Below are positions 19,130-63,399 of a stretch of 64,000 nucleotides of DNA, in pieces; the stretch's first letter is position 1, and the number at the start of each line of letters is the position of its first letter. Origin of the DNA: Mobula hypostoma (Eukaryota). The DNA is taken from contig NC_086108.1 in assembly GCF_963921235.1 (NCBI RefSeq), forward strand, positions 18,042,001 to 18,106,000, read 5' to 3'. The notes beneath the pieces were generated by a model. The model worked only from the letters and a program-made list of their open reading frames with translations, searched no databases and had not been told where the DNA came from. Made by a program: the position numbers and the translations under genes.

Positions 19130-19947
19130 AGGGCATGGTTCTCAGCCAACAGTCAGGCTGTGCAGAAGCAACAGACTCCTCACCCTGAGGATCTTGTACA
19201 GTTAACATACTGTGTCCCATGTCTGAAACCTATGGATGGGCAGCCCAGCTTGACCATGCCCATATCACAGTCTACTGACCACCTCTTCTTCCATGGTTCC
19301 CGGGATCAAACCGCACTGCTTACAATCACATTCAGAGGAGGAGGGCTGCAGATGGCAAGGTGTTTGAGGAGATGCACACCATACCATTCTTAACTGTGTT
19401 TAATCCCAGCACAAGATCCTTTGTGGTCCAGACTGACAGAGTGGAAAAGGTCAGTAAGCTTGTAGAGGGCAAAGTGTTATTTGTTTCCAGTTACGGACTG
19501 CAGAAGGCATCCCATACTTCCATTGCCTGTCCACTATCCACATAACCTTCCTCACCTTCAGAATTCCACAAAACCTCTGTGCAACCAACCAGACCTGGTG
19601 GGATCTTCAAGGCAATGATGTCATAGATACTTGTCTTGACTAAAAGAATAAATAATATTGGACTGTAGGTTCAGTATTGTTGAAAAATTTGAAAAGTGAT
19701 GGGCAGAACCATTCATCACTCTGAATTCTTGCCACTACAAACTGCATCAACATAATTATTAATTTGAATAGATATTGACCTTTCATTGGTTTTATTATTG
19801 GACAATAGTATGATTCATTCATCTAATTTTTGCCCAAAAAAAGTCATCTATTTCCAGCTATTTTCAGTGGATTTTTTTCTCCAGTAAAATATTTGGGTTC
19901 TATCACTTCCCATAGATTCACACACCAAAGAAAAAGAGCCTTTAGCG

Positions 19948-21443
19948 CAGTGGTCCCCAACCACTGGGCCGTGGACCGGTACTGGGCCGCAAAGCATGTT
20001 CATACTGTCATTCACCTACACATCCCAGGCTCTGTGTCCAGTGGACAATTAACCCGCCAGCCTGATTATCTTTGGGATGTGAGAGGAAACTGGATCACAC
20101 AAGGGAAACCTATGGAGTGAATTCAGGATACTAGACCTATGAAGCAGTGAAACAATATGATTTGGCGATATGAGTCAGCTGAACCTTTCCTCATTCCCTG
20201 TCACGCCCACTGTCGAACTTGAACACACGCGAGGTCATTACATACGCGTCATCCATGTCAACGCGGGATGAAGAGCAATTCCTTGAGCTTGGAAATGAGG
20301 GCGGGCTGAAAAGTATGCTTGACATAATATCTCTGCCGACATTCCGAATCAAAGTCAAGGCTAAATATCCTGAGATAGCCACGAAAGCACTGAAAATGTT
20401 GCTTCCTTTTCCAACATATCTCTGCGAAGCGGGTTTTTCTGCAATGAATGCAACGAAAACTAAATTGTGGAATAGACTGGACATAAGGAACCCCCTTCGA
20501 GTATCGCTGTCTCCCATCACCCCTCGATGGGACCGTCTTGTTGCAGGGAAACAAACCCAGGGCTCCCACTGATTCAGCGATATTGGTGTGTTGCAATGAT
20601 TTTACATGTTCATACAGGGAAGATATGTGCTATGTGTTTAATATCCAAACATTATTTAAAATGTTATGATGCTATTGACTTATAAGTGACTTATCACTAC
20701 ATTCATGTGAGGAAAATATGCGCTATGTGTTTAATATTAAATTTGTTAGATAAACCCTTTTAGAAACGAAATTGAGTGTATTAGCCACTTGTAAGTGACT
20801 TATAGTTGACTTATCACCCATATTCTGGTCGTGATTAACACCCCCCCCCCCCCGCCAGGGTTGCCAACTGTCCCGTATTAGCCGGGACATCCTGTATATT
20901 GGGCTAAATTGGCTTGTTCCATACGGGACTGCCCTTGTCCCGTATTTCCCCCACTAAGGTAAAGTGTTCCTATGAAACTTTTCGTGCTGAAATGGCATAA
21001 AGTGAAGAAGCAATTACCATTAATTTATATGGGAAAAATTGCTGAGCGTTCCCAGATCCAAAAAATAACCTATCTAATCATACCATATAACACATAAAAC
21101 CTGAAATAACACGAACATATAGTAAAAGCAGGAATGATATGATATATACACCGCCTATATAAAGTAGAAATAATGTACGTACAGTTTACTTTCACTGAAC
21201 AGAATCGCCAAAAACGATTTGTAGCAAAAATTTGGCACATAAACGCATGCGCACACAGGTGCCCGTGCAAGGCTTCATGGTCATGGTTGTCTTTCTTGGG
21301 GTAAGCACAAGTGTCCCATACTTGACTGCTACTCTTGTCCGTTGGCAACCCAACCACCCCACCCCGCAACCCGGTCGGCCGGTCCGCAAAAATATTGTCA
21401 ATATTAAACAGATCCGCGGTGCAAAAAATGTTGGGGACCCCTG
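19948..21443 (+). mobile_element. Non-autonomous hAT (Buster/Charlie-type) element with a transposase C-terminal remnant
   Basis: TIRs CAGTGGTCCCCAAC / GTTGGGGACCCCTG; perfect 8-bp TSD CTTTAGCG (19940-19947, 21444-21451) with central TA. 20255-20572 encodes YPEIATKALKMLLPFPTYLCEAGFS...KQTQGSH (hAT dimerisation region). Confidence 0.93.
20858..21351. mobile_element. Nested MITE with GGGTTGCCAAC terminal inverted repeats (possibly PIF/Harbinger-derived)
   Basis: GGGTTGCCAAC at 20858 and GTTGGCAACCC ending at 21351, with subterminal GTCCCG repeats. No clean TSD. Confidence 0.65.
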
Positions 21444-21451
21444 CTTTAGCG

Positions 21452-21682
21452 CACTGACTGTCAACTGTACATATACACTAATCCTACATTAATTCCATTT
21501 TATTCTCCCCCCATTCCCATCAGCACTTCACACATACTGTCATTCACCTACACATCCCAGGCTCTGTGTCCAGTGGACAATTAACCCGCCAGCCTGATTA
21601 TCTTTGGGATGTGAGAGGAAACTGGATCACACAAGGGAAACCTATGGAGTGAATTCAGGATACTAGACCTATGAAGCAGTGA
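21452..21682 (-). mobile_element. Decayed V-domain tRNA SINE (tail portion at 19910-19947, split by the hAT element)
   Basis: TTTGGGATGTGAGAGGAAACTGGATCAC resembles the reverse complement of the V-SINE core at 63500-63540. Confidence 0.6.
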
Positions 21683-23384
21683 TTATACGACTACTGAACA
21701 GACCTCATCTACCAATATAATAGACCCTTGACCTCACAGTGTATTCATTATCGTCTTGCCACTTATTTTATGCCTGCACTGCACTTTTTCTATAACTGTA
21801 ATAAAATATTTTGTGTTCTGTTAGTACTTTTCATTTGTACAATGATGGATTGTTGTGATAAAAAGATCTGTATGGATCTGTATCTCAGTACATGTAACAA
21901 TAATGAATAAATTTACCTCTACTAGTTACACCACTGTGTATTCATCTCAATATTTATTTACTAAAATAATTCAACTGTTTCACTATTATTTAGTAGATAG
22001 GAACATAGGTCAATAAAATCACTCTCTGTTGGAATAATGATCAATTGTATTTTTTGCCATTGGGCATTTTTTCACAGTAGAATCATTCATTGACTCAAGA
22101 ATTGGTTAAAAGTATCATTGATTAATGCTGTGATTTATTGATGGCATCATTCATCACTTTGACTGTTCTCCAGGAGAATCATTAACCTGATCTAATTCAT
22201 TCATCGACCGGATAGGTTTATATCTTGAACCAATTATTGAACAGTTGAATGTTATAAGTCAGGAAAATCATTAATGAACTAGTTTAACATTCAGTGAATT
22301 AATTGATCCAAAATTGGATACAGTATTAGATTAATTTATTGACCTGATCGTTAGGTATTGATTGACGATACAATCATGTATTTTCATGCTTATTGCTATC
22401 TTTGTTAATTCACTGGTGTACATATCAGACAATAAAATTGTATTTCAATATGGTTATTGATCAATGATTACATTGATTAAATGATATAGCTGCACCGTTG
22501 TTGAGTTAATAAAGGTGTCTGCATTTATAGTGTTAAGACCAGAATTCAAGTTCCAACTATAGCAATTTAAATTCACTTAGTTACATAAATTCACTTAGTT
22601 AGATACATTTATTTTATGCAATGAGTAATTATAATGGTGATAATGACACTGTCAATTTTTCATGTTAATCCTGCCTTGTCGTTTATGAAGGAGATAATTC
22701 TTTTTACCACTCTGGCCTATATGTGGCTCTAAATACACGGAAAGGTGATTGACTCTTAATTGCCCTCTTAGTTGACAGATGGGCAAAGAGTTTTGGCTTA
22801 GGCATGAAAGGTTAAAGAGAAGCATTCATCAGTCTGATTCTTGTTCAGTAATGGAAAAGTGAAATATCACAGGTGCTGAAATCAGAAATAAAAACCAGAG
22901 ATTGCTGGGAAATACCAACAAGTCAAGGAGGGTCTGCAGAGTGAAACAGAGTTAATGTTTCAGGTTGATAACCTTTCATTGGAAGGGAGTTATTAATTCT
23001 GTTTTCCTCTCCACAGCTGACAGCTGATGTGCTGACCTTTCCCAGTTCATGTTTTACAATCAATCAGGAATCTGATCTTTGGCCACACTGGTATTGGATA
23101 ATGAAGTAATTTATTGATATTCTAGTTGATCAATGGACTAATTCTCGTATATTCCCTGTTCAGTGAAATTTGTGATCAAACAAATAATTAACCCTAAGAA
23201 TTCACCATTTATCATGGAGCTCAGTTATTCAATGTTCTGCAAATAGAATCATTCATCATTTGGTCAACAGGAGTATTTATTGATCATAATTCTGATCAAT
23301 AAAATCAATGATAAATCTGATTATTGTTCAACAGAGAATAAAGTAATAAGTAATCCTGATAATTGCTCAGTTGGAATAAATCAT

Positions 23385-24210
23385 TCTGAAGAGTGCAGGG
23401 AAGTGGGCTTGGGAATGGCAACTGGATTTCAATACAGATAGGTGTGAGATCTTGCCTTTTGGAAAATCAAACCAGTATACAAATTGTATGATGAATGGTG
23501 GGGCAGTAGGAGGTATAATGGAATAGAGCAACCTAAAAGTACAAGTGCATAGTTAATTGGAAGCAGCGTTGCAGACAGACAGTGTGATGGAAAAGGCGTT
23601 TAGCATGATGGTTTTTATCAGTTGGGGTACTGAGTTCAGGAGTTGGGACATTATGTTACAGTTAAACAGCTTTGAGAGAGGCTGCTCTTGGAGTACTGTC
23701 TACAGTTTTGGTTGACCTGTGGTTAAACTGGTAAGAATGCAGAAAAGATTAGAAGAATATTGCCTGGATTAAAGGGCCAAGTTATAGAGAGAGGTTAGCC
23801 AGGCTAGGTCTTTATTCCTTGGAACATGAGACAATGAGGGACTACCTTATAGAAGTGTTTAATATTATGAAAGGTATAGATATAGATGACTCTCTTTCCT
23901 CCAGAATAGGGTGAGACCTAAGCTGGGGGGCTAAGTTCAGAGTGAGAGGGGACAGATTTGGAAAGGACTTGAGGAGCAACTTCTTCATGTAGATGGTGGT
24001 GAATTTATAAAAGTATAGTATGTTAAACTGCCAGAGAATGTGTTTAAAGCAGGTACAATAGTATCATTTAAACACTTAGGTGAGTATATGGAGGGGCGAA
24101 GCTTGGAGGGATAGTGGCTGACTGCAGGACATTGGGATTAACTAGGTGGACCACATGGTGGTTATGGTTTGGTTGGGTCTGTATCAATATAGTATTGCTC
24201 CATTACTCTG
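23385..24210 (+). mobile_element. Old CR1 3' fragment
   Basis: Collinear with 32420-33250 (AAGTGGGC...TTCAATACAGATAGGTGTGAG...CTTTATTCCTTGGAAC). Confidence 0.8.
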
Positions 24211-24652
24211 AGTTGAGTCTCTTCAAACTTAATATCATTTAATAGAGCTGGCAATTATGCTGTTCAGTGGTTAACTGATCTGGTGATCTATCAGTAGGGC
24301 CATGTACTGCCCTGGTTATTCCTCAATGGAACAATTTTCTGGTGAGTGAAATCATTCAACTGATTACTGGTCAAATGGATGCTGGAAATATTTATTAATC
24401 TTGATTTTGGACTGAATTAACTTGCATTGGCCTGATTAATTTTGGGGAAATTGACCTGATTATTGGTAGCTGGAAACATTGATTCTCTTTTAATAATCAG
24501 TGTAATCATGAGTCACATTGATCAGATTAAGCAATTATTGATCTAATTATTATTCAATTGATTCATTCATCAATTTCAGCATTATAACGGTAAATGTTTA
24601 TCAATGATTGTTGATGAGTCCTGAGTTGGCTTGACTGGAAGCTGGCTGTGTT

Positions 24653-25924
24653 TTGGAACCTGTTGAGGGAAAGAGAGTGGGGAAGGAACGGAAATTGCTG
24701 GGAGGGGGTCGTGTGGGTCTGGTAATGGTGGACAAGATAAGAGGTGGGGTTGAGGGAAAGAAAGTGGAGAAGGAGAGGGATAGAGACTTGGGACCAGAGG
24801 TAGGCAGCTGGAGAGAGGTGGATTATTGTGAAGGGAGAAATAAAGGGAATGAGGAGGTAGTGAGGGGTTGGATGAATAAAAACCAAGACAAAGGGAATAA
24901 AAGAATAAGAAATGATAGTGGAGAAAGCTCTGAAAGTGAGGAAGATGAACAAGCTCAGAGAGGAGGTGTTGTCATAATTAGGTTTAATGAGAAGGCTCAG
25001 GGACATATGAAGAAAATTAACCCGTTTGTGCTAACAACAACTCTGACAAATAAGATAGGAGAAATAGTATTTGCAAAAGTCCTTAATGATGGCAACTTAC
25101 TGGTAAGATGTGCGAATGAGGAACAACTTGAGAAAGCACTCAAGCTAAAAGAGATAGGAAAATGCAAGGTGGAATACACTGGGAGGGTGGGAGCACAAAA
25201 CAGTGGTTGTAAAGGAGTGATTACGGGGATACCAATGAGTATAAATATGGAGGAGATAAAGAGGAATATCAAAGGAGGGAAAGTAATGAATGTTCAAAGA
25301 CTGAAAACAACAAAGGAGGGAGTGAAAAAGGAAAGTGAATCTGTATTGATTGATTTTGAAGAAGAAAGAGTGCCAAGGAAGGTGTTCCTGGGTTTCATGA
25401 GTTACCCAGTAAGGGTGTATGTGCCAAAGCCATTGAGGTGCTATAATTGTCAAAGGTTTGGACACGTGGCTAAAAACTGTAAAAGGCAGAGGAGATGTGC
25501 TAGATGTGGGGGTGATCATGAATATGGAAAGTGCAGAACAGGAGTTCAACCAAAATGCTGCAATTGTGGAGGAGCTCATAATGTTGCATATAGTGGGTGT
25601 GAGGTTGTGAGACGGGAGACTAAAATTCAAGAAATAAGAGTGAAAAGAAAGATCACTTATGCAGAAGGTGTAAGAATATCAAGAGAACAGAATAATGTTC
25701 CTAATGAACAGGGAGCAATAGGGATACGAGAGATGCAACAAAGAACAAATGACAGGATTTATGTAGACAAAAGGGCTCTAGTAACATTCATTGCAGGAGT
25801 GATTAATAGTACTGCTGAGGTAAAGTCAAAAAGTGACAAAATTCAGCTGGTGGTAAAAGCAGCAGTTAAACCATTTAGGGTTAGTAGGACTGACATGGGA
25901 GGAAGTGAGGGAGAACCTCAGTAA
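24653..25924 (+). CDS. LINE ORF1 gag-like protein with three zinc knuckles
   Basis: 423-codon ORF with CYNCQRFGHVAKNC, CARCGGDHEYGKC and CCNCGGAHNVAYSGC. The true start is uncertain, and a frameshift near the C-terminus is possible. Confidence 0.88.
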   Translation: MEPVEGKRVGKERKLLGGGRVGLVMVDKIRGGVEGKKVEKERDRDLGPEVGSWREVDYCEGRNKGNEEVVRGWMNKNQDKGNKRIRNDSGESSESEEDEQAQRGGVVIIRFNEKAQGHMKKINPFVLTTTLTNKIGEIVFAKVLNDGNLLVRCANEEQLEKALKLKEIGKCKVEYTGRVGAQNSGCKGVITGIPMSINMEEIKRNIKGGKVMNVQRLKTTKEGVKKESESVLIDFEEERVPRKVFLGFMSYPVRVYVPKPLRCYNCQRFGHVAKNCKRQRRCARCGGDHEYGKCRTGVQPKCCNCGGAHNVAYSGCEVVRRETKIQEIRVKRKITYAEGVRISREQNNVPNEQGAIGIREMQQRTNDRIYVDKRALVTFIAGVINSTAEVKSKSDKIQLVVKAAVKPFRVSRTDMGGSEGEPQ

Positions 25925-25966
25925 TCAGTCAAGCGAGGAAGTGTCTTGAGTTGGTTAATACTAATT

Positions 25967-28900
25967 ATGGTGATTCTTTTACAATGGAATGCAAGGAGCT
26001 TACTGGCCAATAGCCAGGAATTCAAGCACTTTATTAAAGAAATGGTTGTAAAACCGGATGTAGTGTGTATTCAGGAAACTTGGTTGAAACCAACTTTAGA
26101 CTTTGTGGTATATGGGTATACAATGATAAGGAAAGATAGAAATCTAGGGGGAGGAGGGGGTTGTGCTATGTTAATCAAGCAAGGTATACCATATAGGGTA
26201 CTGGAAAAAGGAGATGATCAGGAATACATAGTGGTGGAAGTGTGGGAGAGAGGGGAAGGAGTGGTTATAATTAACTACTACAATCCATGTAAAAGGTTGG
26301 ATTTGGACAGCCTATTAAAGATACAAGGACAAAACAGACATAAAGTAGTGTGGTGTGCAGATTTCAATGCTCATAGCACAATATGGGGGGATCAGATTAC
26401 AGATCCAAATGGGAAGGTAATTGAAGATTTGATGGAAGAAAGGGATTTGGTGTGTATGAATGATGGTAGCGGCACAAGGATAGATATAACAACAGGAACT
26501 GAGTCAGTGTTAGATATTACGTTAGTGTCTAATACCTTGGCTGGCGTTAGGAACTGGGGAGTTTGGACTGCTTCAACAGTAGGCAGTGATCACTACCCAG
26601 TTTTGTGTTCAGTGGGTGAAAGAGTTGAGGTAAGACCAGGTGGCGGAACCCCAAAGTGGGTGTTTGAAAAAGCTGATTGGGGAAAGTTCCAGAAGTTGAG
26701 TGAAGAAGGGTTGACAAAGATTGATATTTCTGGAAATGTAGATGAATTAAACAGTCAGGTGACTTCAGCAATTATGGCAGCAGAAGGATCTATACCTAGG
26801 AGTAAAAATAGGATGAATAGAAAACTGGTACCATGGTGGACAGAGGAATGTTGTCAGGCTGTAAAAAACAGAAATAGAGCATTCAGGCTAGTTAAAAGAA
26901 CCCATAATATGCAGCATTTGGTTCAATATAAGAAAGCACAGGCAGTGGTGAGAAGAACTATACATCAAGCTAAAAGGGCAAGTTGGAGGAGTTTTTGCGA
27001 CAAGGTAGGAAGAACAACACCTGTGGGAGAGATATGGGGAATGATTAAGAGGATGGGAGGAGATAGAAGGGAATGGGAATATCCAGTAATGATATCTGAG
27101 GAGGAAACTGCAGTCTCCAGTAGGGATAAGGCTGAGGTCATGGCCAAATCATTTGTACTGATACACAGTTCAGAAAATTTGTCTGAAGAAGGGAGAAGAA
27201 GAAGGGAAAGAATAATGAGCCAACACCCAGGTGTGTTAAGCAGGAGGGAAGGAACAGATGATATAATTGATGATCCATTTACATTAGCAGAAATGGTGAG
27301 AGCAATAAAGAGATCGAGACCAACCTCCCCAGGGAAAGATCTGATATGCTCTGTGATGCTAAAAAATCTGGGAGAAGGAGCGCTCCTGAAGTTGCTGCAT
27401 TTTTATAACAGAGTGTGGGAGGAGGGAAGATTACCAAGTGCATTACCAGTAATTCCAATAAGGAAGCTGGCAAGGATCTGTCAAAACCCACTAGCTACAG
27501 ACCAATTACATTAACATCAAGTATATGTAAGATAATGGAAAGGATGATAACAGAAAGGTTATCATATGAGCTTGAGAAAAGGGGAATGCTGGCAAGTTAT
27601 CAGAGTGGTTTTAGAAAGGGAAGGAATTCCATGGACTCAGTGATTATGTTAGAGACTGAAATAAGGAAGGCCCAGGCAAATAGAGAGTCAGTAGTGGCAG
27701 TGTTCTTTGACATTGAAAAAGCCTATGATATGATGTGGAAGGAAGGATTATTAATTAAACTGCACAAGATGGGGGTTGGTGGGAGAGTTTTTAATTGGAT
27801 TAAAGATTTTTTGTTTGGTAGAAAAATTCAAGTTCGGATTGGATCAGAATTATCAAAACAGTACATAGTGGAAAATGGCACACCTCAAGGTAGTGTGATT
27901 AGCCCATTACTTTTCATGATTATGATCAATGATGTCTTCACAAAGGTACCAGTGGATATAGGTAGGTCACTGTTTGCGGATGATGGGGCCTTGTGGAAAA
28001 GAGGCAGGAACATGGACCATATAATCAGGAAACTACAAGAAGCAATTGATGAAGTGGTGGAGTGGGGTTATGATTGGGGATGTAGATTTTCAGTAGACAA
28101 AACTCAAACTGTATTTTTTTTACCAGGAAAAGGGTCGAGGTAGGGAAGAAGTTAAGGATGTATGGGGTTGAATTAGAAAGGGTTGCATCATTTAAATTTC
28201 TGGGAGTTATATTTGATTCACAATTAACATGGGCAGACCATATCAGGAAAGTTGAGGAGAAATGTAAAAAAGTAACAAATGTGATGAGATGTTTGACTGG
28301 TAGGGAATGGGGAGCAAGTTGTTCAGCTTTGAAGAGAATGTATGTGGCTTTAGTAAGATCTGTACTGGATTATGGAAATATAGTATATGGATCAGCAGCT
28401 AGGTCTCTTATAAGGAAACTGGATGTGATTCAGGGTCAGGCCTTGAGAGTGTGCAGTGGAGCTTTTAAAACGTCACCAGTGTCAGCCCTACAGGTAGAAA
28501 TGGGAATAATCCCTTTGGAACTAAGAAGGATGCAACTGATGGCAAACTACTGGGCTAACTTGCAGGGGCACAATGATTCTCACCCTACTAAAGGAGTGTT
28601 GCAGGACTGCTGGGAAAATGGGAGGTTTCAGAGAGATACCTTTAGTCGGGTAGGGAATGATATCGCGAAAGAATGTGGAGTATTTGATCTGAGGATAAGT
28701 CCTTCAGTAGTTTATCTGGTTGTAGCTCCATGGAAGCTTGTATGGTCTGACATAGACTGGCATTTGTTAAAGGTAAAAAGGAAAGAAAGATATAAAACAG
28801 ATTTGGTAAATGCATTTAACTGTCATGTGATGGAAAAGTATAGTGATTATACTCACATTTATACGGATGGTGCGAAGGAACCTGAAACAGAAGTGACAGG

Positions 28901-29709
28901 GTTTGGGGTGGTAATACCAGCAAAAGAAATTGGAATCAGCAGAAGAACATCTAATAAGTTAGGGGTGTTTACAGTGGAGATGCTGGTGGTGTTGGTTGCG
29001 TTGCAATGGGTGCAGAAAGCCAGACAAGCCAAAGCATTGATATGTTCAGATTCATCCTCAGTTCTAGCAAGTTTAAGGTCTTTTCACACAAACAGTCGGC
29101 AAGATGTACTTTGTGAAGTCCTTCAGTTAGTTACAAGAATTGCAAATCAGGGAGGTCAGGTAAAATTTCTATGGGTTCCAGCACATGTAGGGGTGAAGGG
29201 GAATGAGAGGGTGGATGAGTTGGCAAAGAGGGCGTTAAAGAAAGAAAATGTGGAAATGCACATTAGTATCAGTAAAGCAGAGGTTAAGTGTGTAATCTGG
29301 GAAAAAGTCAACCGAATATGGCAAGAAAGATGGGACAGGGAGGGGAAAGGGAGGCATTTATATCAAATACAAAAGAATGTTGCAGTTACTAGGGTAGGTA
29401 ATGGAAACAGAAGAGAGGAAATTGTGTGGACTAGGTTAAGGCTGGGGCACTGTGCATTAAACAAAACTGAAAATGATAGGGAAACACCAGACAGGATTGT
29501 GTGAGGAATGTCAGGAAGATGAGTCAGGAGAACATGTAGTTTTGTGTTGCAGGAAGTATGGGATACAGAGAGAGATGATGAGAAATAAATTAAGGGAGTT
29601 GGGGATGCAGGAATTCACATTAAAAGGGTTGCTGGGCGTGGGTGAGAGAGCACAAGTCCGGGTATTTTTAGCGTTTTTAAGGGGTACAGGGGTTTTTCAT
29701 AGAATATGA
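25967..29709 (+). pseudogene. LINE ORF2: APE + RT + RNase H + CCHC, three frameshifts
   Basis: LQWNARS, CIQETW, DFNAH, GSDHYP; FFDIEKAYD, GTPQGSVISP, LFADD; IYTDG, SDS, WVPAHVGVKGNERVDELAK; CEECQEDESGEHVVLCC. Breaks near 27470, 28130 and 29470. Confidence 0.93.
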
Positions 29710-29764
29710 CGAATAAACAGGAATAGGATACTAGGATGGTCAAAGATGGGAGGGTGAAGTTTAG

Positions 29765-29812
<48 letters not shown>

Positions 29813-32128: not shown

Positions 32129-32240
32129 CCTCACTATTTTGTTCTCTTTTTGCACGTTTGTTTTGTATTTCTAATGTAACATAGTATTTTTAAGGTACTG
32201 CACTGTATAGTACCATAAAATGACAACATTTCACAAAATG

Positions 32241-51600: not shown

Positions 51601-52825
51601 TTATCACTAACGGTGCAAACAACTTTACTATTTTCTTTTTCTTCCTTCTCCCCTACATCTGTTCCTACACTCTGGTTCCCCTCCCCCCCTTGTATCTATT
51701 TAAATCCACTGGAGCCTCTCTAGCAAGCCTACCTGCAAGAATATTTGTCCCCCTCCAGTTCAGATGTAAACCATCCTGCCAGAACAGGTCCCAAATTTCC
51801 CTGGAAAAATGTCCAATTATCTATAAATCTGAAGCCCTCCCTCCTGCACCATGTCTTCAGCCACGTGTTGATCTGCACTATCTTACTGTTTCTAAACCTG
51901 CCTGCACATGGCACTGGTAACAATCCTGAGATTGCTATCCTGGAAGTCCTGTCCTTTAACTTGGTACCTAATTCCCTAAACTCACCTTTCAGGACCTCCT
52001 CACTCTTCCTACCCACATCATTGGTCCCTACATGGATCACGACATCTGGCTGCTCACCCTCCCTCTTGAGAATAGATCTTGATCCGAGATATTGCGAAAC
52101 TTGGCACCAGGGAGGCAACAGACCATCCAGGATTCTCGATCTCTTCCACAGAACCTCTTATCTGTCCCCCTAACTATCGAATCACCTATCACTACTGCTT
52201 ATCTTTTCCCTCCTTCCCTTCTGAGCTGAGGGTCCTGTCTCGGTGCCAGAGACGCAACCACTGCAACTTGTCCCTGGTAGGTCGTCCCCATCAACAGTAT
52301 CCAAAATGATATACTTATTATTGGTGGGAACAGCCACAGGAGTGCTCTGCTCATTCTGTCTATTCCCCTTCCCTCTCCTGACAGTCACCCAGCTACCTGT
52401 CTCCTGACCCTTAGGGGTGACTATCTCCCTGTAACTCCTGCTTATTTCTGCCTGTGCCTCATGAATGATCTGAAGTTCATCCAGCTGCAGCTCCAGCTCC
52501 AGTTCCCTGGCTCAGTTTGTCAGCTGGATGCACCTTTTACAGGTGTAGTCATCAGGGTGTGCTCGCCCTGACTTCCCATGTACTGCAAACGGAGCACTCA
52601 ACTGCCCTAACTGCTGCCTCCATTACCTACTCTTAAAGTAATTAAATTAATTAAAGTAACTTACTTGGCCTTACCGCACTTGGAGTGAAGCTCATCCTCA
52701 GCCTCTGCTCGCCAAAGCCTTCCTACTCTGTCTCCCACTACTCCGTCACCCGCTCCAACATCACCTGCTTTGTTAATCTGCTCGCTTTTAAACTCTCCCG
52801 CTGTCTCACGGACTTTTGCTCACTT
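48685..52825 (-). mobile_element. Full-length CR1 LINE (ORF1 ~52620-51700, ORF2 ~51600-48770; frameshifted)
   Basis: VIHVGTNDV; VISETW, VGDFNFP, NYRPVSLTSVVGK, SGVPQGSVLGP, KYADDTK; tail at 48685; internal 36-bp duplication at 50587/50623. Confidence 0.95.
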
Positions 52826-53532
52826 GTGGTTTTAGTTCCATTCTTTCTGCACCGCAGTAGAAAAGACCGGAAGTAAAACCTGCAACCCGGAAGCAACCTC
52901 TCTCTACAAACAGCTTTCCGTAGTGGGAGTATTGCTATATTACCATTATCCTAATTCGTATTAACTTATCTTTAAGATGTCCACATTACAACACTTCTCC
53001 CCCTTTAAATTCCAACATTTCGCAAATGTAAATTACTGGTAAATAAAAAAAAACAGTGGTGTCATTATCTTGCGCACCTCTGAAACTTATACTAGTGTCT
53101 CAGTAACAGCTTACCAATACAAAACACCTGAAAAACGTGGCAGATTCAACATTCAGTCTAACAAAGGAAACTGTCCATTCAAATATTCAGCCTGTCAGGT
53201 GGTTTGCAAGGGCACTGTGCTGCAACAGATGAAAATTATGGAATCTAACTACAGGAGCTGTCTTACTGACAGTAACCTCACAGACTGTCTCAGACTGTCT
53301 GTCTGTAGTTAGGAGCCAAATTTCAGGGAACTAGCAGAAAGTATTCAGCCCCAGTCATCATACTGAGTGCAACAGTCAATTTTTATTCATTTATTTTTCA
53401 TGTTGAAATAAAATTAAATAATTAAACATAGACAAAGGTGTTCTAATGTGAGTATTATAAAAATAAGTAATACTAATTAAGATAATGGTAATATAGCAAT
53501 ACTCCTGCTACGGAAAGCTGTTTGTAAAGAGA

Positions 53533-53849
53533 ACAACAGGAATTCTGCAGATGCTGGAAATTCAAGCAACACACATCAAAGTTGCTGGTGAACGCAGCAG
53601 GCCAGGCAGCATCTGTAGGAAGAGGTGCAGTCGACGTTTCAGGCCGAGACCCTTCGTCAGGACTAACTGAAGGAAGAGTGAGTAAGGGATTTGAAAGCTG
53701 GAGGGGGAGGGGGAGATGCAAAATGATAGGAGAAGACAGGAGGGGGAGGGATAGAGCCGAGAGCTGACAGGTGATAGGCAAAAGGGGATACGCCTCTTCC
53801 TATAGATGCTGCTTGGCCTGCTGCGTTCACCAGCAACTTTGATGTGTGT
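53533..53849 (-). mobile_element. Fold-back Penelope-terminus element
   Basis: 14-bp TSD TGTTTGTAAAGAGA (53519-53532, 53850-53863); 53567-53625 is repeated inverted at 53793-53851. Confidence 0.9.
53630..53663 (-). ncRNA. Minimal type I hammerhead ribozyme (intact core)
   Basis: Minus strand GTC-CTGACGA-AGGGTCTCGGCCT-GAAAC-GTC-GAC: full catalytic core, GTC cleavage triplet and palindromic minimal stem III. Confidence 0.8.
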
Positions 53850-54719
53850 TGTTTGTAAAGAGAGATTGTTTCCGGGTTGCGGGGTTTTACTTCCAGTTTT
53901 TTCTGCCTGGTGCGCATGTGTGTGACTAAATGATTTAGTAGGTCGATCTTGCCTTTCACTAAGGCCGAGGTAGGGGATATTGGGCTTAAAAAGGTTGGTG
54001 ACCACTAGCCTATTGAATTATTTTCTGATTGGTTTATTAGTCTGTTGGTTCACTTATTGGTCTGTTTACTAGTGCAGTGATCCATTGATTTGACCATTGA
54101 CTCATTCACTGATCTGGTTATTTGCCTGTGATAATTTTATTGACCTGATTATTGGCCCAGTTGAATTCTTCACTTGCTGGTTATTTTTCAGTCCAATTAC
54201 TGCCAGATCTGATTATCTGTCTTTGAAAGCAATGTTCATCATTGAAATAATTGTTGATTTATTGAAATACACATTGGCAATATTATCAGTTTGAATCATT
54301 CATTGAACTGAATCTTGGGTGTGGGATGATGAATGATCTGATTTTTGGTCTGTTGATTTATTTCTTGATTTGATTTTGGGTTCTGAATCATTCATTGGTA
54401 TGTTTGTGGCCCTATTAAATCTTAAGAATGTGGATATGTGTAATACAAGCAGAAATTAAAACCATATTGGGCTTTGAGCTGCTCTTTCATGCAATAAATG
54501 ATATATGGTTATTGGTCATAATGCTACTTTCTTGCCTGAAACTCTGGTCTTTGATTCCCTTGTAATTCAAAAGAAAAAAGAAATCTGTCAACTATTATGG
54601 CTTAAGTAAGGAGATTCCCTCTCATTTCATTCCTAAGTGTTTGGTCTTTACCTAAAGACTCTGCACCCTGACTTTAGTTCACCTATTAGTTGAGACATCC
54701 ACAGAATATCTACCCTTCA

Positions 54720-55262
54720 AAACATAAGACCATAAGACAAAGGAGCAGAAGTAGGCCATTCGGCCCATCGAGTCTGCTCCACCATTTTATCATGAGCTGA
54801 TCCATTCTCCTATTTAGTCCCACTCCCCCGCCTTCTCACCATAACTTTTGATGCCCTGGCTACTCAGATACCTATCAATCTCCGCCTTAAATACACCCAA
54901 TGACTTGGCCTCCACTGCTGCCCGTGGCAACAAATTCCATAGATTCACCACCCTCTAACTAAAAAAATTTCTTCACATTTCTGTTCTGAAAGGGCGCCCT
55001 GCAATCCTTAAGTCATGTCCTCTCGTACTAGACTCCCCCATCATGGGAAACAACTTTGCCACATCCACTCTGTCCATGCCTCTTAACATTCAAAATGTTT
55101 CTATGAGATCTCCCCTCATTCTTCTAAACTCCAAGGAATACAGTCCAAGAGCGGACAAACGTTCCTCATATGTTAATCCTCTCATTCCCGGAATCATTCT
55201 AGTGAATCTTCTCTGTACCCTCTCCAACGTCAGCACATCCTTTCTTAAATAAGGAGACCATC
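54720..55262 (-). mobile_element. Young CR1 3' fragment
   Basis: Nearly identical to 5395-5823; (CATAAGAC)n tail. Confidence 0.92.
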
Positions 55263-57964
55263 TCATGTCAGCATCACAAGCCCCCACACTTGTATCATAT
55301 CTTTCAATAGGTTCACTTCTCATCTCCAGATCACATAAACCCATTCTATTCAATCTTTCATTGCAAGGTGACACCTTGAACTCAATCAAGCAATTTTTGT
55401 CCATATCTTCCAGGTGGGTATACCATTCCTTAACTGAAACCTGTATATTATTACAAGATTTCCTACTTTAGTATTCCATACCTTTTGGAATAAAGGTATT
55501 CAATAAGTTCATGATTGATACAATCACTGTCTCTGTTGACTGACTAGCTCATAGAGCCAATTGTGGATATGATTATTGTTCCATTGAATTATTGACTGAT
55601 CTCATTACTTACACTATTAACTATATCAATAGAATTGAAGCTTTTGTTGATCGGTTCACTTACCTGCTTAATTATTCACCAACCATTCGTATGATCATGA
55701 TCTAATTATGTCTTCATTAACTCCATTGCTAATCTGTTTATTGGTACTTTGAATAATTCATAATGCAATTGCTGTTCTACTGAGTTGACCTTTTATCTGG
55801 TTATTGATGCAGTGAATTATTAATGACCACATTGAATATTGATAGGTGTGATCATTGCTTTATTTTACTATTTAGTGACCGTGGCATTGGTTTAGTGGAT
55901 TATTCAATACATCAATCAATAATCATTCTTTGAGCAAATAATTAGTTGATCTCACTATTAACTTAGTCCATGATCTGGGTATTTACAGACTGTGTTCTGT
56001 TGAACCACTCCCTGACACTATTACCCATCTGTTGAAGCACTGAATGATTTAGTTATTATCCTTTTTGAATTATTGACTGATTAGAGGATGGAACTACCAT
56101 GTGAATAATTATTTTAATTATTGCTCTGCTTGTTCTTTGTTGTTGAATTATTCTGATTTGATTGATTTATTCTATCATTAGTCTCTATTGATACTTGAAT
56201 CATGTAGCCTGTTATGTCAATATGATGAATCATTAATTATTACCAATATCAATCAGTTCAATTATTCCTTCTGTCATTTGTTTCAATCTAGTTATTGAGG
56301 TTCTGCTTGATTCTTTGATTATTGTTCTGTTCAATTAATCATTAGCCTTAATGAATATTGGTCTGTTGTATTCACTGTCATAGTATGCTTTATCAAATCA
56401 CTTAATCTGATTAGTAGCCTTTTCAAATAAACTAAAATGGTTATTGGTTTGTAAAATTGTTAACTAAACTGAATATCAGTATGGTTAATTAAATCATTTG
56501 CTCTGAGTCACAACTTAATCTAGTGATTGGTTTGTTGAATCGTGCTTTATTTATTGTTGGTAGGTTGCTTAGTCAATTGGCTTATTTGTTAAACTACTGC
56601 ATTCCTTTGATCTGTGGCATCAATCATTGATGTATCTGTTTCATGGATTTGGTTATTGATTTGTCAAATTATTCACTCATTCAATCAATTGGCTATCATA
56701 TCAGTGATGTGACTACTGGTCAATTGTATCATTTGTTTAACTGATCAGTCTGTTAAAGTATTTATGAATCTGACAATTTGCCAAGGGCTTTATCTGGTTT
56801 CTGCTCTGTTGAATCACTCGCCATTCATATTGTTCACATAATGATGGATAATTCCACTGTTGTGTCATTTACTGAGTTGAGAGTTTTATTATGTGTGTGA
56901 ATTTTAGTTATTGATAAGTTGATGCACTGAGTTATCTGATTATCAAATTATTGAATTATTCATAGATCTATGGAGTGCTCTGGAAACAATTAACCTAATT
57001 ATTGGCCTTCTGAATCTTAACAGGAATATTGCTTTCAACGATTCATTAAAACAATCAAAAATTAATCAATTTTGATATTATTGATCATTATTCATTAAAA
57101 TGTTTAACTGTTGGTACATCTGTCCATGAGTCCACAACTTTGACCCATTAGTTCAATTATTGGTTAGTTGCATTATTTTCTGATTAAAACACATGACCCT
57201 GGTTACTGTTCTGTTTCATCATTGACTGAATTTGGCATTGTTCATCTTAATAATTCTAAGATTAGGACAGTTGATTAATTCATTGGTTTGCTTATGGTCT
57301 GAGTAGTTCATCATTTACAAGTATGAATATTAGCCATTTGATTGGTCATTGACCAGAGGTTTGTTTATCAAATCAGTGTTTTATGTATTTGACCCCAGAT
57401 TCACCCAATTAACAACATAGGGGCCATCTGTTCATGCATTTTATCCATTAAATCATTGAGTGGCCTGGTTATTGATTTGTTGAATAAGCATATGAATTAG
57501 AAATTTGTCCCTTGAAGTCTTCTTTGTATTAATCATAGGTCTGCTTTATTACTTATTGATCTGGTATTGCATTTTGAATTCTACAATGATTCTATTATTC
57601 AGTAGTGTGGCTTTTCATTTAAGAAATAGTCTGCAGAGTAATTTATTGAATGAATCATTGATCTATTGAAACATTCACTAATCCAGTATTTTTCTGTCAA
57701 ATTGCACACTGATCATTGCACTATTTAGTCATCATTGATTTAATTAATAGTATGTTTAATCAATCACTTATTGGACCAATGAATTGTACTAATTATTTTC
57801 ATCTGAGTAACACATTCTCACTATTGATCTGTTAAAACATTAATTGGTTTTATTTGTCAAATTTGTTTGACCAATGTATTAGCCTAAAATTATTCAACAA
57901 TACAATTAGTCAATTAGATCATTTATAAATTATGTAATTGTACTCAATCATTCAATTGGGTTCC

Positions 57965-58190
57965 GTGCACAAGTTTGACCTCTGCTTTCAGTTGCTTCTC
58001 ACTCCATCTCCATGACCTTGCTCAAACTCTTATCTTTCTGTTGCCTCAAACACTTTTCGAACAAACCCCAATGCAAACATAAGGATCTTGTCTTCTGTCA
58101 GGGATCATTACAACTTCTGGGCTCAATATTGAATTCTAGGCTTTCAAATAATTAACCTTGTCTGTTTGGCTGGTTATACTGTTGGTCATC
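57965..58190 (+). mobile_element. Decayed Penelope GIY-YIG C-terminal remnant
   Basis: Collinear with 10260-10445 (ATCTTGTCTTCTGTCAGGGATCATTACAAC...CTCAATATTGAATTCT). Confidence 0.5.
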
Positions 58191-58199
58191 CCATGTAAT

Positions 58200-58490
58200 T
58201 AGTGATTAGCTTTTATTTGCCACATATGCATGGAAACAAACAATCAAGTACATCATTTTGTATCAATGAACATGTGCAAGAGTTGCAAAGCTTCTGGTAC
58301 AAACCTAGCATATCCCCAATTTACTTACTCTAATCCTTTTTTTTGGAATGTGGGATGAAACTGGAGCACCCTATGTGGTCATGGGAAGAACATACAAAGA
58401 GTTTACAGACAGCAGTGGGAATTGAACCATGATCATCTGATCACTGACGTTGTGAAGTGTTTGGCTATCTGCTACACTACTGTTGTCTCT
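58200..58490 (-). mobile_element. V-domain tRNA SINE
   Basis: TTTGGAATGTGGGATGAAACTGGAGCACCC and GGGAATTGAACC. Confidence 0.7.
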
Positions 58491-58734
58491 CTTCAGACAC
58501 TGGCTGATCTGTTGGTCATTTCCAGCATTTGGTTTCTGGTTTCAGCAACAGCTCAGATTTGCATTTCAAAGCAGTTCATGTTTCCCCATCTTTTCTTTCT
58601 TTTCTTACTAAAGACCAATTTTGGCCAAACACAAACTCAGAGCATCACCATTAATCCAACCTGCTCATATGCTTTCCCATCTTTTATTGCCCTTTATCTG
58701 CCCATCAGCTCCCACCTTAATTCTCTAACCATCC

Positions 58735-59045
58735 ACCGAGGGAAATTTGGTTTCATTACAGCCGCATCAACCAAGAATAGAGTGTAGATATAGCAATACA
58801 AAAAAAATCCCAACAATCAAACACCAAAATGCAAATTATGCCAGATGGAAAATAAGTCCAGGACCAGTCTATTGGCTGAGGGTGTCTGACCCTCCATGGG
58901 AGGAGCTGCACGTTCGATGGCCACAGGCAGGAACGACCTCCCGTGCCGCCAAGTGTTGTATCACGGTGGAATGTGGTCGAAGTCCAACAGTGAAAAGTTC
59001 AATATTCAGTCTGCAAACACGTTCCTTGATCGTAATATACCGAAT
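58735..59045 (-). mobile_element. Rex1/Babar-type 3' fragment
   Basis: Near-identical to 8407-8636. Confidence 0.65.
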
Positions 59046-59237
59046 ATTAAGATGAGTTAATGATGCAATAGATTCTCAGTGAATGCTGTAACCACAGTGA
59101 CTGAATCTTCTGAATGCTGATCATTAATGTGTACGCTACTGGTCAGAAACCAGATGCTTAAATTGATTCTGTAATCCTATAACGAAAACAATGAATAACT
59201 TAGTTGATGAAAATGATAGTAATGAATGGATTAATAG

Positions 59238-59395
59238 CAAACAACAGGAATTCTGCAGATGCTGGAAATTCAAGCAACACACATCAAAGTTGCTGGTGAA
59301 CGCAGCAGGCCAAGCAGCATCTATAGGAAGAGGCGCAGTCGACGTTTCAGGCCGAGACCTTCGTCAGTGCGTTCACCAGCAACTTTGATGTGTGT
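59238..59395 (-). mobile_element. Minimal fold-back Penelope-terminus element (158 bp)
   Basis: 15-bp TSD TGAATGGATTAATAG (59223-59237, 59396-59410); hammerhead core at 59338-59367; inverted terminal copy at 59368-59397. Confidence 0.9.
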
Positions 59396-59464
59396 TGAAT
59401 GGATTAATAGAACTGATTTCAACTAATAAAAGTATCTAAGATTAAATGAATCCATGTTTCAGCA

Positions 59465-60210
59465 AGTTCATAACAGTCAGAGAATTGTACACCATAGCAA
59501 CAGGCCCTTCAGTCCAACTCATCCATGCTGACCAAGATGTCTTCCTGAGCTAATCCCATTTGCCAGTGTTTTGTCCATATCCCTCTACCTTTCCTCTTCA
59601 CATACTTGTCAGGTATCTTTTAAATGTTATAACTGTACCTGCCTCTACCACTTCCTCTGGCAACTGATTCTACACAGCTCCACCTTCTATATGGAAATCC
59701 TGTGCCTCCTTTCCCTTTCAAGCCTTTTCCCCCTCACCTTTGACCTATGCTCTCTAGTTTTGGACGCTCCTGTCCTGGAGAAAAGACTTTGGGCATCCAC
59801 TTTATGTCCCTCATGAAATTATAACACTATATCCTTCAGCCTCCTCCACTTCACAGAGATTAGCCTCAGCTCTCTTCATAAGCCCTATAGTCCTTGGTAA
59901 TCTTTTTTGCACTACTTCCTGGTTAATGGCATCCTTGCCCTAGCTCGGTAAACAGAACGGCACGCAAACTCCAAGTGTGCTCTCACCAATGACTTGTACA
60001 GTTACAATATGAGATACCATCTCCTGTACTTAGTACCCCGATCAATGAAGGCAAATGTGCTGAACAGCTTCTTTACCACTCTGTCTATCTGTGTCATCAA
60101 CACATTCAACGAACTATATAGTTGTACCCCAAGTTCTCCCTTGTATAATATTTCCCAGGGCCTTATGACCTACCCCGGTTTAACTTGCCAAAATGTGTCA
60201 CTTCACTCAA
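59465..60210 (-). mobile_element. Old CR1 3' fragment
   Basis: CAACAGGCCCTTCAGTCCAACTCATCCATGCTGACC tail signature and RT C-terminal homology. Confidence 0.8.
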
Positions 60211-62669
60211 TAACCAAGCTTATAACCAAGTCAATGAATAAATATTGTATTTTTTAGTTATTTAAATTAACTTTGAATATTCATAAGGAGTTACAACATG
60301 CAGAAACACTTAAGTTTTGAGGAGGTAAAAGGGTAAAGTGGACATAGGGGCCTCTGCGAGCAGTGGATTAGAGCCAGTGTGATCTAGCTACTGAGCGAAT
60401 AATTGGCTCAGTACGGTGGGTTTCACAAACCAGTAATTAGATCAGTGACTAATAATTTGTGTAGGGTTGCAAGTGAGTGACAAAATGCTAGCTACCTACA
60501 ATCAATGAATGAAACAACTAACCCATAATGTGTCAGTGATTGAATAGGCCAATGTACAGATTAATAAATAAGGTATTGGCCAATTAATTGGATCAATGCT
60601 GACCAATAATTGTATTTGTTCATTGAGCTGATTGACTCATGAATGTCTCAATCTCAACATTACTGAACAGACCATAATCAGATCATTGAGTAATTCATGA
60701 GAAACAATTAGATTTAATATTGTAATTATGCAGTAACCATGTGAATAAATAAATCAATAGACCATTAATTAATTCAATGAAAGAATCAGCAGATTAATAT
60801 TCTAATCAATGAACGACTTCAAACAAATTAGTTCTCAGACCAATGAATAAATCTGACCTACGAGTAACTGAACCTACCACCAATGAGATTACTGATAGAT
60901 ATGCAGTACAACTATCAGATTGCTGAGCCATTCATCTCAACAATGGTTATATCAGTTAATAACAGTTGGCCAACATCAGAATCGCTGAGATGATGGGTCA
61001 GTAATTGGAAAAAGCATAACTCTACAATCCATTAGAAATGTTAGTAAACAGTTGTACTGAATGATAATCAGATCCGCAGTCACTTAAATGAAATTATCAA
61101 AAGATAATCAGATCAGTAGATCATTCTATAGATCAGTGAATGATGCAAGCATAAAATAATTATTAACACATAAATAATTGCAGCAGAGAACCACTAATCA
61201 AATAATTATTTTACAGACTAATAGCCAACAGTTAATCATTCAATAGACCAAAAATCAAATTAATAAATGCAAGAAGTAAATAAACTAATAATGCAATCGG
61301 ATTGATTAACAGGTCAGTCACAAAACATGGGTGAATCGTTCAACAAACCAATCATCTCACCATTAAAATACAGCAGAGCATTAATTGGTGAATGATTTAA
61401 CAAAGCTATGATGAAACAAATGAAGCTTCAACAAGCCAATAATCAGATCATCGAATGATTCAAGTATTTTTATGTTCAGTCATTAACTGAACTGATTATT
61501 CATTTGATTGTCTGCTAAGTCTTTAAAATCTCGAGTTACTGGAATATTGGGTATTCTACTTTGTGGTTCCATTGAATCATTCAGTAACCTGTTTGTTAAG
61601 AGTATTGATTTCACTGGCCAAGTTATTTTCCTGTTGAATCATTCACTGGAATGGTGGTGTTAAGTGACTCACAGATCTAATTAGCAGGCTGTTGAATCAT
61701 TGAATGTTCTGATTATCAGTCAGGTCAAATGTTCAATGATAACTTTATTATTATCTCCGGCACTTCACTCGTCTGATTATTGGGATGGGGGATCATTAAT
61801 AATCTGAATTAGTCACTGATTTGATTATTAGCCAGTTAAACAATTTCCTGAGAAAGTAACTGATTTCTATGTCATGCATAGATCTGATTGTGCATCTTCT
61901 GTACCATTCCCTGATATTTGTTTTATAGAATGTCTGATAAGAATAGAATGTGGATTATCTGATTTAGTCTATTAGGTTATTGAATAATCTGATTGCTGAT
62001 TTAATGATTTACTCATATGTAATCATAGAATTATACTCCGAATTATACCGCAATCTGGTTAATTGGGTTCATCAACACAATTATTGCACTATTGAAAGCT
62101 TCATTGAGTAGATTATTGGTATATTTATTCATTCTCTGATCTAACCAGTCATCTTTCTCATTGTTTTTTAACAGACATCTGATAACTATGAATCATTTAC
62201 TGACCTGATGATTGAACTGGTTAGTCATTGATAGATGTCATTAATTCTTGGAAAGTTGTCAATGGACTGTGTTAACACAGCAAATGATATGATTATTGGT
62301 TGTGGCATTACTTGGTCTGTTATTGGGTTGCTCAATCTGATTCCTCTTTTACCATGATCACTGATTGTATTATTGGTGCGTTGAATATTTAATCACCTTG
62401 ATTATTCGGCTATTCAGTAATTTCAATGTCAAATCATTTGTTGATTCATTCATTTGGGTACTTGTGACTAATCATTGTTACAGTTCTGAAACATCCACTG
62501 AACTTGTTGCTTTATTCATTGTTAACCCTCCACTGTCAGAAGAATCATTTTATCTGTTTGCACATGTGCAGAGAGGGCCTTTGTGTGACTGTACTTGAAA
62601 CATTGTGTACAGTTTTCATTTTCTTACCATGCAATGAAGAATTACCAGCTGGTGGATTTGCAAAGGTGG

Positions 62670-63100
62670 AGAGACTGAGTCAACTTGTACTGTGAAGAGT
62701 TAAGAAATAGAGTGGGGGGGGGGGTGTAATCTCTAAGATTTACAAAATTCTCATAGGGATTGTCAGAAGATACTGGGAGAGTGCTTACCTTGGCCAAGGA
62801 CTCTAAGACTAGAGGTAGGGGATATTTTGAAAATTAGGGCAGCCATTGTGGACTGGGGTGCAAAGAAATGTCTTCACTCAGAGGTTGGTGAATGTTTGGT
62901 ATTCTTTGTCCATGAGGATCATTGAGGTTTAATAACTGAGGTTCAGTTTTGTAATAGTGAATGATAGATTTCTGGGACTTGGGGAAATCAGGGTTGTGGA
63001 AATAATGAAAAAAATATTGCTGAAATGAAAGATTAGCTGAGATTTTGAGTGCTGGGACAACTTGAAGGGCTAAATGGCCTACTGCTGCTGTTATTTCTTG
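62670..63100 (+). mobile_element. Old CR1 3' fragment
   Basis: TTCACTCAGAGGTTGGTGAATGTTTGG; GAAGGGCTAAATGGCCTACT tail. Confidence 0.75.
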
Positions 63101-63399
63101 TAGCTCATTGACTGGAAGTTTGGTTTGCTGTATTGTTTGAATCATTGAGTAGCTAGTGAATAATTGTTCTATGGTATAAATCACTGATATAATTGTTTGT
63201 CCACAAATCCATTATAAAGCATCCTCTAGGGAAGAGTGATCACAAGATTGAATTTCACAACTGATTTGAGAACAAAACTAACTTAGTTAAAGATAATGAC
63301 AAAAATTTGCAGGCATCATTAGCTGAAGTATTTCGGGAAGTTAGATTAGAAGGTAAAATGGTAGATGTGAAATGGCAGATGCTAATGGAAATATGTGAA

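What the first reader, a model, noticed from the sequence alone, without database searches (positions are those of the whole stretch)
19640..63210. Hidden 32-bp degenerate tandem array forming the backbone of about 44 kb
Seen: the AT-rich sequence between transposons is periodic. ATCATT recurs at exactly 22082/22114/22146/22178, and a unit of about TGATTATTGGTCAGTAGAATCATTCATTGATC can be read in nearly every inter-TE gap from 19.6 to 63.2 kb. Summing those gaps by eye gives about 12 kb, i.e. a few hundred units. Units are very divergent but keep a 31-32 bp period. The TSDs of the Nimb LINE, the hAT element at 48503 and the Penelope insert at 59238 are pieces of the array, so it predates them. 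Each unit has a TGATT...AATCA inverted pair, an ATTGG (CCAAT) box and an ATTGAT (CUT-homeodomain-like) site, and 32 bp is about three helical turns. Inference: either a fossil satellite no longer homogenised, or a long, phased protein-binding or chromatin array whose spacing is conserved more than its sequence. Standard repeat finders could miss it.
Basis: partly seen in the sequence, partly recalled or inferred. Interest (0 to 1): 0.75.

Follow-up and report, generated by a model that had tools for sequence, protein, structure and literature searches.

The report
Fossil satellite inside a ray PBX1 intron
A worn-down array of roughly 550 copies of a 32-base repeat, broken up by transposons, runs for 147 kb through the second intron of a PBX homeobox gene (likely PBX1) in a ray; it is most likely an ancient satellite that stopped being refreshed and now decays like unconstrained DNA.

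Summary
The array is real and larger than reported. A circular profile HMM.6–9.8 kb in the window (~310 units, 65% identity to consensus) and 0 bp in 6 of 6 shuffles; lag 32 has z=13.4 without any consensus. It continues to window coordinate ~167 kb (147 kb span, 17.4 kb called, ~550 units), inside the 397-kb intron 2 of a PBX gene, likely PBX1, of a devil ray. No second array was found in the genome or in the three paralogue introns. Three TSD claims hold. The functional reading is not supported: units are equally alike at all distances (0.51); substitutions are strand-symmetric and AT-biased; neutral simulation reproduces position profile, indels and spacing; divergence in four other organisms is 0.87–0.96 of neighbouring, mostly transposon-derived DNA (0.94 expected from composition); CCAAT and CUT motifs are not preferentially kept. 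Residual: intact 8-mers are 1.38x expectation, and PBX/HOX-type octamers are 10x denser than elsewhere in the intron. Verdict: an old, frozen satellite. No earlier scan note on it.

The parts
19656..45000 (+). Left domain of the array, subtype A (unit positions 13/16 = A/A); 16 HMM segments between transposon insertions
53999..64000 (+). Start of the central domain, subtype T (positions 13/16 = T/T); continues beyond the window to ~123.8 kb, where subtype A resumes and runs to ~167.1 kb (G000:C50 ~18.209 Mb)
55552..57854 (+). Longest insertion-free run of the array in the window (2.3 kb); held by DNA runs of 9 coded organisms (A-I)
60501..61463 (-). Inverted block of the array (units read on the minus strand); 59095-59237 is also minus-strand
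35684..35772 (-). Small inverted block of the array
24614..29925 (+).
   Evidence: Pfam hits; TSD
24600..24613 (+). Left copy of the 14-bp TSD of that LINE (right copy 29926-29939), a piece of the array
48503..54007 (.). hAT-like element with short terminal inverted repeats and 8-bp TSD (48495-48502 / 54008-54015, 7/8 match), carrying nested LINE pieces; inserted in a T-type unit
59238..59395 (.). Short insert with 15-bp TSD (59223-59237 / 59396-59410) in the inverted part of the array
1..64000 (+). The whole window lies in intron 2 (~397 kb) of a PBX gene on the + strand: exons 1-2 at G000:C50:17,905,850-17,906,266, exon 3 at 18,303,296-18,303,547

Best explanation
This is a single-locus array of about 550 recognisable copies of a 32-bp unit in intron 2 of a PBX gene (likely PBX1) that is most likely a fossil satellite: inferred to have grown by tandem amplification, then stopped being homogenised, and to have decayed since by ordinary mutation. 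Shown: the array, its extent, its intronic position, two subtype domains (A-T-A), local inversions, insertions by later transposons, and star-like divergence of ~0.44 substitutions per site from the consensus. Inferred: (1) the 32-mer arose as a diverged dimer of a 16-mer; (2) unequal crossing-over or slippage built an ~18-20 kb, nearly uniform array with a block of one variant in the middle; (3) homogenisation ended long ago and across the whole array at about the same time, probably helped by accumulating divergence and insertions; (4) ~130 kb of transposons then inflated it to 147 kb; (5) it stays readable because cartilaginous fish evolve slowly. Its age would be roughly 13-20 times the age of the split from organisms C, E and G (0.44 versus half of 4.4-6.8% pairwise difference), so probably a few hundred million years; that figure is rough.
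For: Pairwise unit identity is flat at 0.49-0.51 from neighbour to >100 kb apart, so no recent local homogenisation. The substitution matrix is strand-symmetric, G/C lost twice as fast as A/T, equilibrium GC ~29%. Apart from the subtype pair 13/16 (and 12-13, which partly reflects it), the strongest column couplings are neighbouring TG/CA dinucleotides (28-29, 1-2, 21-22, 25-26, 8-9), as expected from passage through methyl-CpG (mechanism from established knowledge). Neutral simulations give per-position retention correlated 0.83-0.89 with the data, and matching indel density and unit-length share. Cross-species: 31 of 32 contig pieces from four runs give array/non-array substitution ratio 0.915 (95% CI 0.785-1.07); 0.87-0.96 over four variants of boundaries and rows; 0.94 is expected from GC content alone. 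Inversions and many insertions are tolerated. Old LINE fragments inside the array are 69-78% identical to their best relatives among the fetched loci, i.e. younger than the array. The same gene holds younger tandem arrays (52-bp, 76-81% matches; 37-bp, 71-77%), so such expansions recur here. RNA-like runs show only short contigs at depth ~2-6 over the array, which shows no abundant transcript but is weak evidence.
Against: Retained positions cluster at short range (residual autocorrelation 0.05, 0.03, 0.02, 0.02 at lags 1-4) and intact 8-mers are 1.38x independence, versus 1.00-1.02 in three simulations; BLAST alignments of old TE pairs do not show this clustering beyond lag 1 (a different aligner). 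Some same-context positions differ more than sampling allows (T8 0.86 vs T28 0.70; A3 0.70 vs A30 0.59). TGATNNAT, TGAT, CCAAT and CIC-type motifs each run about 2 SD above simulation, TGACAG about 3 SD on small counts (11 vs 5.4±1.8, still below the intron background of 13). The cross-species interval reaches down to 0.75-0.80, the four runs share the reference branch, and the comparator is assumed, not shown, to be neutral. The host gene is a developmental regulator. No shark, skate or chimaera orthologue could be examined.
Confidence: 0.82

Rival explanations
1. A dead satellite that was partly co-opted: a long low-affinity cluster of homeodomain/TALE sites in the PBX gene's own intron, weakly selected, which could bind PBX-HOX complexes and tune the gene's transcription (feedback) or chromatin.
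For: It sits in a PBX intron. The unit has three TGAT cores (two forward, one reverse; read from the consensus). The array holds 132 TGATNNAT octamers in 17.4 kb versus 13 expected from the rest of the intron; TGATNNAT is the PBX/HOX motif and clustered low-affinity sites are a known mode for Hox-Exd (PMC6411007, passages). Unexplained 1.38x excess of intact 8-mers.
Against: The consensus itself contains no perfect TGATNNAT; the 132 sites arise by drift and neutral simulation gives 110±11. The intact-8-mer excess is spread over most phases of the unit, not centred on one motif. No rate reduction across species beyond composition. No such array in the other three PBX genes' intron 2.
Confidence: 0.11
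2. Relic of a former centromere or other heterochromatin block, whose satellite froze when the centromere moved.
For: AT-rich single-locus array with symmetric A-T-A domains, reminiscent of the layered structure of centromeric satellites (recalled).
Against: The central T domain is not younger: retention 0.670±0.006 versus 0.684 and 0.702 in the flanks, the opposite of layered expansion. The original array was only ~20 kb and lies inside an intact essential gene. No relatives found elsewhere in the genome.
Confidence: 0.03
3. Repeat core of a long non-coding RNA (Xist/Rsx-like) transcribed from within the intron.
For: Four RNA-like runs from two organisms hold pieces of the array.
Against: Pieces are 190-270 bp at depth ~2-6, as expected of intronic pre-mRNA or DNA carry-over; none of the joints shown links array segments (15 of 328 shown). 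No Rfam match at gathering score in the window. Inversions break strand consistency. Rate is near neutral.
Confidence: 0.04

Closest known systems
Degenerating satellite DNA in the amplification-degeneration model (Camacho et al. 2022, PMC8822648; abstract and passages read; author name recalled)
   Same: Tandem units amplified, then left to point mutation; high divergence from consensus marks the time since the last amplification; short units can build longer ones.
   Different: That study scores divergence on a 0-40% scale with family peaks at 0-27%; this array is ~35% raw (0.44 corrected), single-locus, intronic, fragmented by ~130 kb of insertions and still in register.
Highly divergent tandem repeats / latent periodicity missed by TRF (PMC8064497, PMC4038257, PMC12418385; search listing and start of abstracts only)
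   Same: Statistically clear period that TRF does not report; found by profile methods.
   Different: The listings I saw do not concern cartilaginous fish; I did not read them to compare array sizes.
Layered dead alpha-satellite flanking primate centromeres (recalled, not read here)
   Same: Frozen monomeric array with star-like divergence, positional subtypes in symmetric domains, dated by inserted transposons.
   Different: No live core, centre not younger than flanks, 32-bp unit, no centromeric context known.
Homotypic clusters of low-affinity HOX/PBX sites (PMC6411007, passages)
   Same: Dense TGAT-containing sites near a developmental gene.
   Different: Known clusters are short enhancers under constraint (recalled); here ~17 kb of sites with no measurable constraint.

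Membership tests
Satellite/minisatellite DNA (fossil) | Head-to-tail tandem units with a common consensus | tested here: met
Satellite/minisatellite DNA (fossil) | No ongoing homogenisation (identity independent of distance, no young subfamily) | tested here: met
   identity 0.49-0.51 at all distances; no near-consensus copy in the genome
Satellite/minisatellite DNA (fossil) | Neutral substitution and indel rates | tested here: met
   ratio 0.87-0.96 vs 0.94 expected, intervals 0.75-1.15; simulation match; small unexplained clustering
Live satellite under concerted evolution | High within-array identity, neighbours more alike | tested here: not met
Centromeric satellite | Multi-locus or megabase array with younger core | tested here: not met
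   single locus; centre not younger
Centromeric satellite | CENP-A occupancy | not testable with these tools
   no chromatin data available
Homotypic transcription-factor site cluster | High density of one factor's sites | tested here: met
   TGATNNAT 132 vs 13 expected from the rest of the intron
Homotypic transcription-factor site cluster | Sites or spacing conserved above neutral expectation | tested here: inconclusive
   spacing: not conserved; motif counts 0 to +3 SD, not motif-specific
Homotypic transcription-factor site cluster | Factor binding and effect on expression | not testable with these tools
   needs ChIP/ATAC/reporter
Repeat-rich lncRNA | Abundant, processed transcript over the repeat | tested here: inconclusive
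   only low-depth contigs in 4 RNA-like runs of unknown tissue
PBX1 (host gene) | Orthology to PBX1 rather than PBX2/3/4 | tested here: inconclusive
   nearest proteins named PBX1 or PBX1-like; the C67 gene lies between SIN1-family and MVB12-family genes and the C81 gene near a second MVB12, matching recalled PBX3 and PBX4 neighbourhoods; C12 has recalled PBX2-type residues; the NUF2 neighbour search was uninformative; no tree built

The most novel reading that the evidence does not exclude
An ancient satellite, perhaps older than the shark-ray split, was captured in the PBX1 intron and, because its unit is one or two changes away from PBX/HOX sites, became a ~17-kb low-affinity sponge or feedback enhancer for PBX's own complexes, kept by weak diffuse selection that leaves only a faint excess of intact words.
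Probability: 0.1. Interest if true: 0.75.

Novelty: new member of a known kind. Interest (0 to 1): 0.33.

Why it matters
As a fossil it is an unusually clean natural experiment: ~550 once near-identical copies with a reconstructable ancestor give a deep neutral substitution and indel spectrum for a ray (G/C lost twice as fast as A/T, deletions outnumbering insertions 304 to 166), a time-ordered record of transposon insertions, and an account of how a developmental gene's intron swelled to 397 kb. It also shows that TRF leaves large ancient arrays unannotated in slow-evolving genomes. If the co-option reading held, it would be a new route from satellite DNA to transcription-factor autoregulation.

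Tried and rejected
TRF at score 30 does not report the array. Genome pattern search with the 30-mer consensus at ≤2 mismatches: 0 hits, but the array itself holds 0 such matches, so it only excludes a young copy. The 25-mer at ≤3 mismatches gave 21 hits, 13 in this locus and 8 elsewhere, control 0; that excess looked like further arrays, but the HMM found none in the 19.5-20 kb fetched around each of the 8. Short, more decayed relatives elsewhere cannot be excluded. BLAST-type search of one 501-bp piece found only itself. Paralogue introns (C12 40 kb, C67 170 kb, C81 350 kb) and the first 40 kb of this gene: no HMM call. Pfam scans of 247 of the 263 unmasked ORFs ≥80 aa in 464 kb (the 16 left out overlap transposon ORFs or frames scanned or lie opposite them) found no credible host exon other than PBX exon 3; weak hits below curated cut-off (Apc4 WD40, LITAF-like, DUF5134, DUF4278) were not followed. 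Rfam: none. Exact 24-mer in metagenome and viral contigs: 0 and 0. NUF2 synteny search rang nowhere. Layered-expansion (young centre) idea rejected. 'Three helical turns' not needed. One contig piece (X20, 36656-36835, 15% different, likely a paralogous TE copy) was left out; putting it back moves the ratio from 0.915 to 0.87. Array boundaries were set by eye; HMM boundaries give 0.96/0.90. Literature: searches listed no paper that by title or abstract start describes this array; a 2026 mobulid genome preprint (10.64898/2026.10.27.761883, term search only) has no 'PBX' in its main text and gives only bulk repeat classes; its supplements are closed and could hold a repeat library with this family. 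Earlier scan notes: empty; one search returned one unrelated note.
Full report
Observation. It called nothing in 6 of 6 shuffles of that DNA and nothing in 100 kb upstream, but 31 segments in the next 100 kb downstream, which it had not seen. A test that uses no consensus gives lag 32 as the top lag (z=13.4) in unmasked DNA of 19640-63210; in two control sets it is not the top lag. TRF does not report the array.

Extent and anatomy. The window is G000:C50:18,042,001-18,106,000 of a 3.48-Gb genome. The array ends at window coordinate ~167 kb; the next ~197 kb hold no call. Retraining on the whole span gives 63 segments, 17,374 bp, 560 units of at least half length. Positions 13 and 16 covary (p=3e-12) and define domains: A/A at 19.6-45 kb, T/T at 54-123.8 kb, A/A at 123.9-167 kb. 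Five blocks, 1,469 bp in all, read on the minus strand. The LINE at 24.6-29.9 kb (zinc knuckle, endonuclease, RT, RNase H) has a 14-bp TSD, the 59238 insert a 15-bp TSD and the hAT-like element at 48503-54007 an 8-bp TSD with one mismatch; after excision the unit register reads through the first and third.

Context. Pfam scans of 247 ORFs around the array found one host-gene exon, a PBC domain. A genome search placed four PBX genes and showed exon 2 of this one 136 kb upstream of the window. tblastn of the nearest protein confirms exons 1-2 at 17,905,850-17,906,266 and exon 3 at 18,303,296: intron 2 is ~397 kb and contains the whole array. Nearest named proteins are 'PBX1-like' from devil rays (99%), then other rays, skate and sharks. 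SIN1- and MVB12-family genes flank the C67 paralogue and a second MVB12 lies near the C81 paralogue, which by recalled synteny makes those PBX3 and PBX4; this gene is likely PBX1. Human PBX1 intron 2 is also long, 229 kb (PMC10499895, passages).

Copy number. A 20-mer at ≤1 mismatch has 3 of 3 genome hits in this locus. A 25-mer at ≤3 mismatches has 13 of 21 here; the other 8 are lone matches with no array around them. The three paralogue introns have none. It is a single-locus array at this sensitivity.

Other organisms. A 2.5-kb pure-array stretch is held by runs of nine coded organisms: 1.00 of words in A (possible source), ~0.56 in B, 0.05-0.15 in C-I. Contigs of C, E, G and I laid on 33200-46700 cover the array at single-copy depth and differ by about 4-9% per piece. 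Poisson regression on 31 of 32 listed pieces gives an array/non-array substitution ratio of 0.915 (95% CI 0.785-1.07); with the dropped piece or HMM boundaries it is 0.87-0.96. GC content (0.31 vs 0.40) alone predicts 0.94. Gap letters per base were higher in the array in three of four runs. The runs share the reference branch, so they are not independent, and table 8 lists only the longest pieces.

Mode of decay. Pairwise identity is 0.49-0.51 for neighbours and for units >100 kb apart: a star phylogeny. The substitution matrix is strand-symmetric with equilibrium GC ~29%, distance 0.44 per site. Column couplings other than 13/16 are mostly TG/CA neighbours. Neutral simulations passed through the same HMM reproduce the per-position profile (r=0.83-0.89), the share of exactly 32-bp units (0.28-0.39 in the three best-matched settings vs 0.33) and indel density. 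The centre is not younger than the flanks. The halves of the unit match at 13/16 purine/pyrimidine states (p≈0.02 over all lags), suggesting a 16-bp ancestor.

Results against a purely neutral reading. Intact 8-mers are 1.38x independence against 1.00-1.02 in simulations, with positive autocorrelation at lags 1-4. The excess covers most phases and is lowest over ATTGG. Counts of TGATNNAT (132 vs 110±11), TGAT, CCAAT and the CIC-type octamer are about 2 SD above simulation, TGACAG about 3 SD on small counts, ATCRAT equal, TAAT well below (663 vs 788±21). My simulation has only base- and CpG-dependent rates, so clustered mutation or a non-uniform ancestor could explain this; weak selection could too. 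Separately, the array has ten times the intron's density of TGATNNAT, the PBX/HOX octamer (PMC6411007, passages), inside a PBX gene. This is the basis of the novel case, put at 10%.

Transcription. Four RNA-like runs (two of A, two of D; RNA status is a guess) give 190-270-bp contigs at depth ~2-6 over the array while transposon parts reach thousands. This fits intronic background and shows no abundant RNA; tissues are unknown. Rfam has no match.

Age. 0.44 per site is 13-20 times half the pairwise difference to C, E and G. Their identities are coded, so no calibration is possible; sharks have a low mutation rate, 7e-10 per base per generation (PMC10587355, abstract and passages), and a preprint puts one split within mobulids at ~20 Mya (passage). 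If C, E or G lie at about that depth the array froze some 250-400 million years ago; this is inference, and an upper bound if the array was not uniform when it froze.

Comparison and verdict. It works like, and meets the tested features of, a degenerating satellite in the amplification-degeneration model (PMC8822648, passages). It fails the tests for a live or centromeric satellite. Eight paper searches and four look-ups in earlier scan notes showed no description of this array. It is a new member of a known kind: a good catch, unusually old and large, useful as a neutral clock, with a small open door to co-option. Interest 0.33.

Noticed in passing
L025:~3750 to L028:~6000 (window-equivalent ~197-230 kb) and L013:4162-5671: A GT-rich 52-bp tandem array of ~33 kb (76% matches in L026) in the same PBX intron, with a second 1.5-kb array of the same unit (81% matches) about 210 kb upstream; a younger counterpart of the fossil array.
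   Followed up: partly
L038:2530-4942: 37-bp degenerate tandem array (71-77% matches) in a later intron of the same gene; also a ~50-bp periodic patch in L030 and a 45-bp one in L064 near the C12 paralogue.
   Followed up: no
window 19947-21444: DNA-transposon-like insertion with terminal inverted repeats near the left end of the array, containing a nested element; my TSD check there did not give a clean 8-bp match.
   Followed up: partly
window 53523-53850, 59238-59395: Short inserts of one very highly represented family, each flanked by a duplication; RNA-like runs lay 60,000-118,000-fold summed contig depth on the 53.3-54 kb bin.
   Followed up: no
L031:7299-7547 (PBX exon 3): This PBX paralogue has changes at otherwise invariant PBC positions (L for M in QLMRL, T for S in EHSDY) relative to the other three paralogues of the genome.
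   Followed up: no
unit positions 28-30 in window-equivalent 123.9-167 kb: The right A domain shows a shifted variant at positions 28-30 (CAG commonest), hinting at a third old subtype, perhaps with an ancestral CpG.
   Followed up: partly
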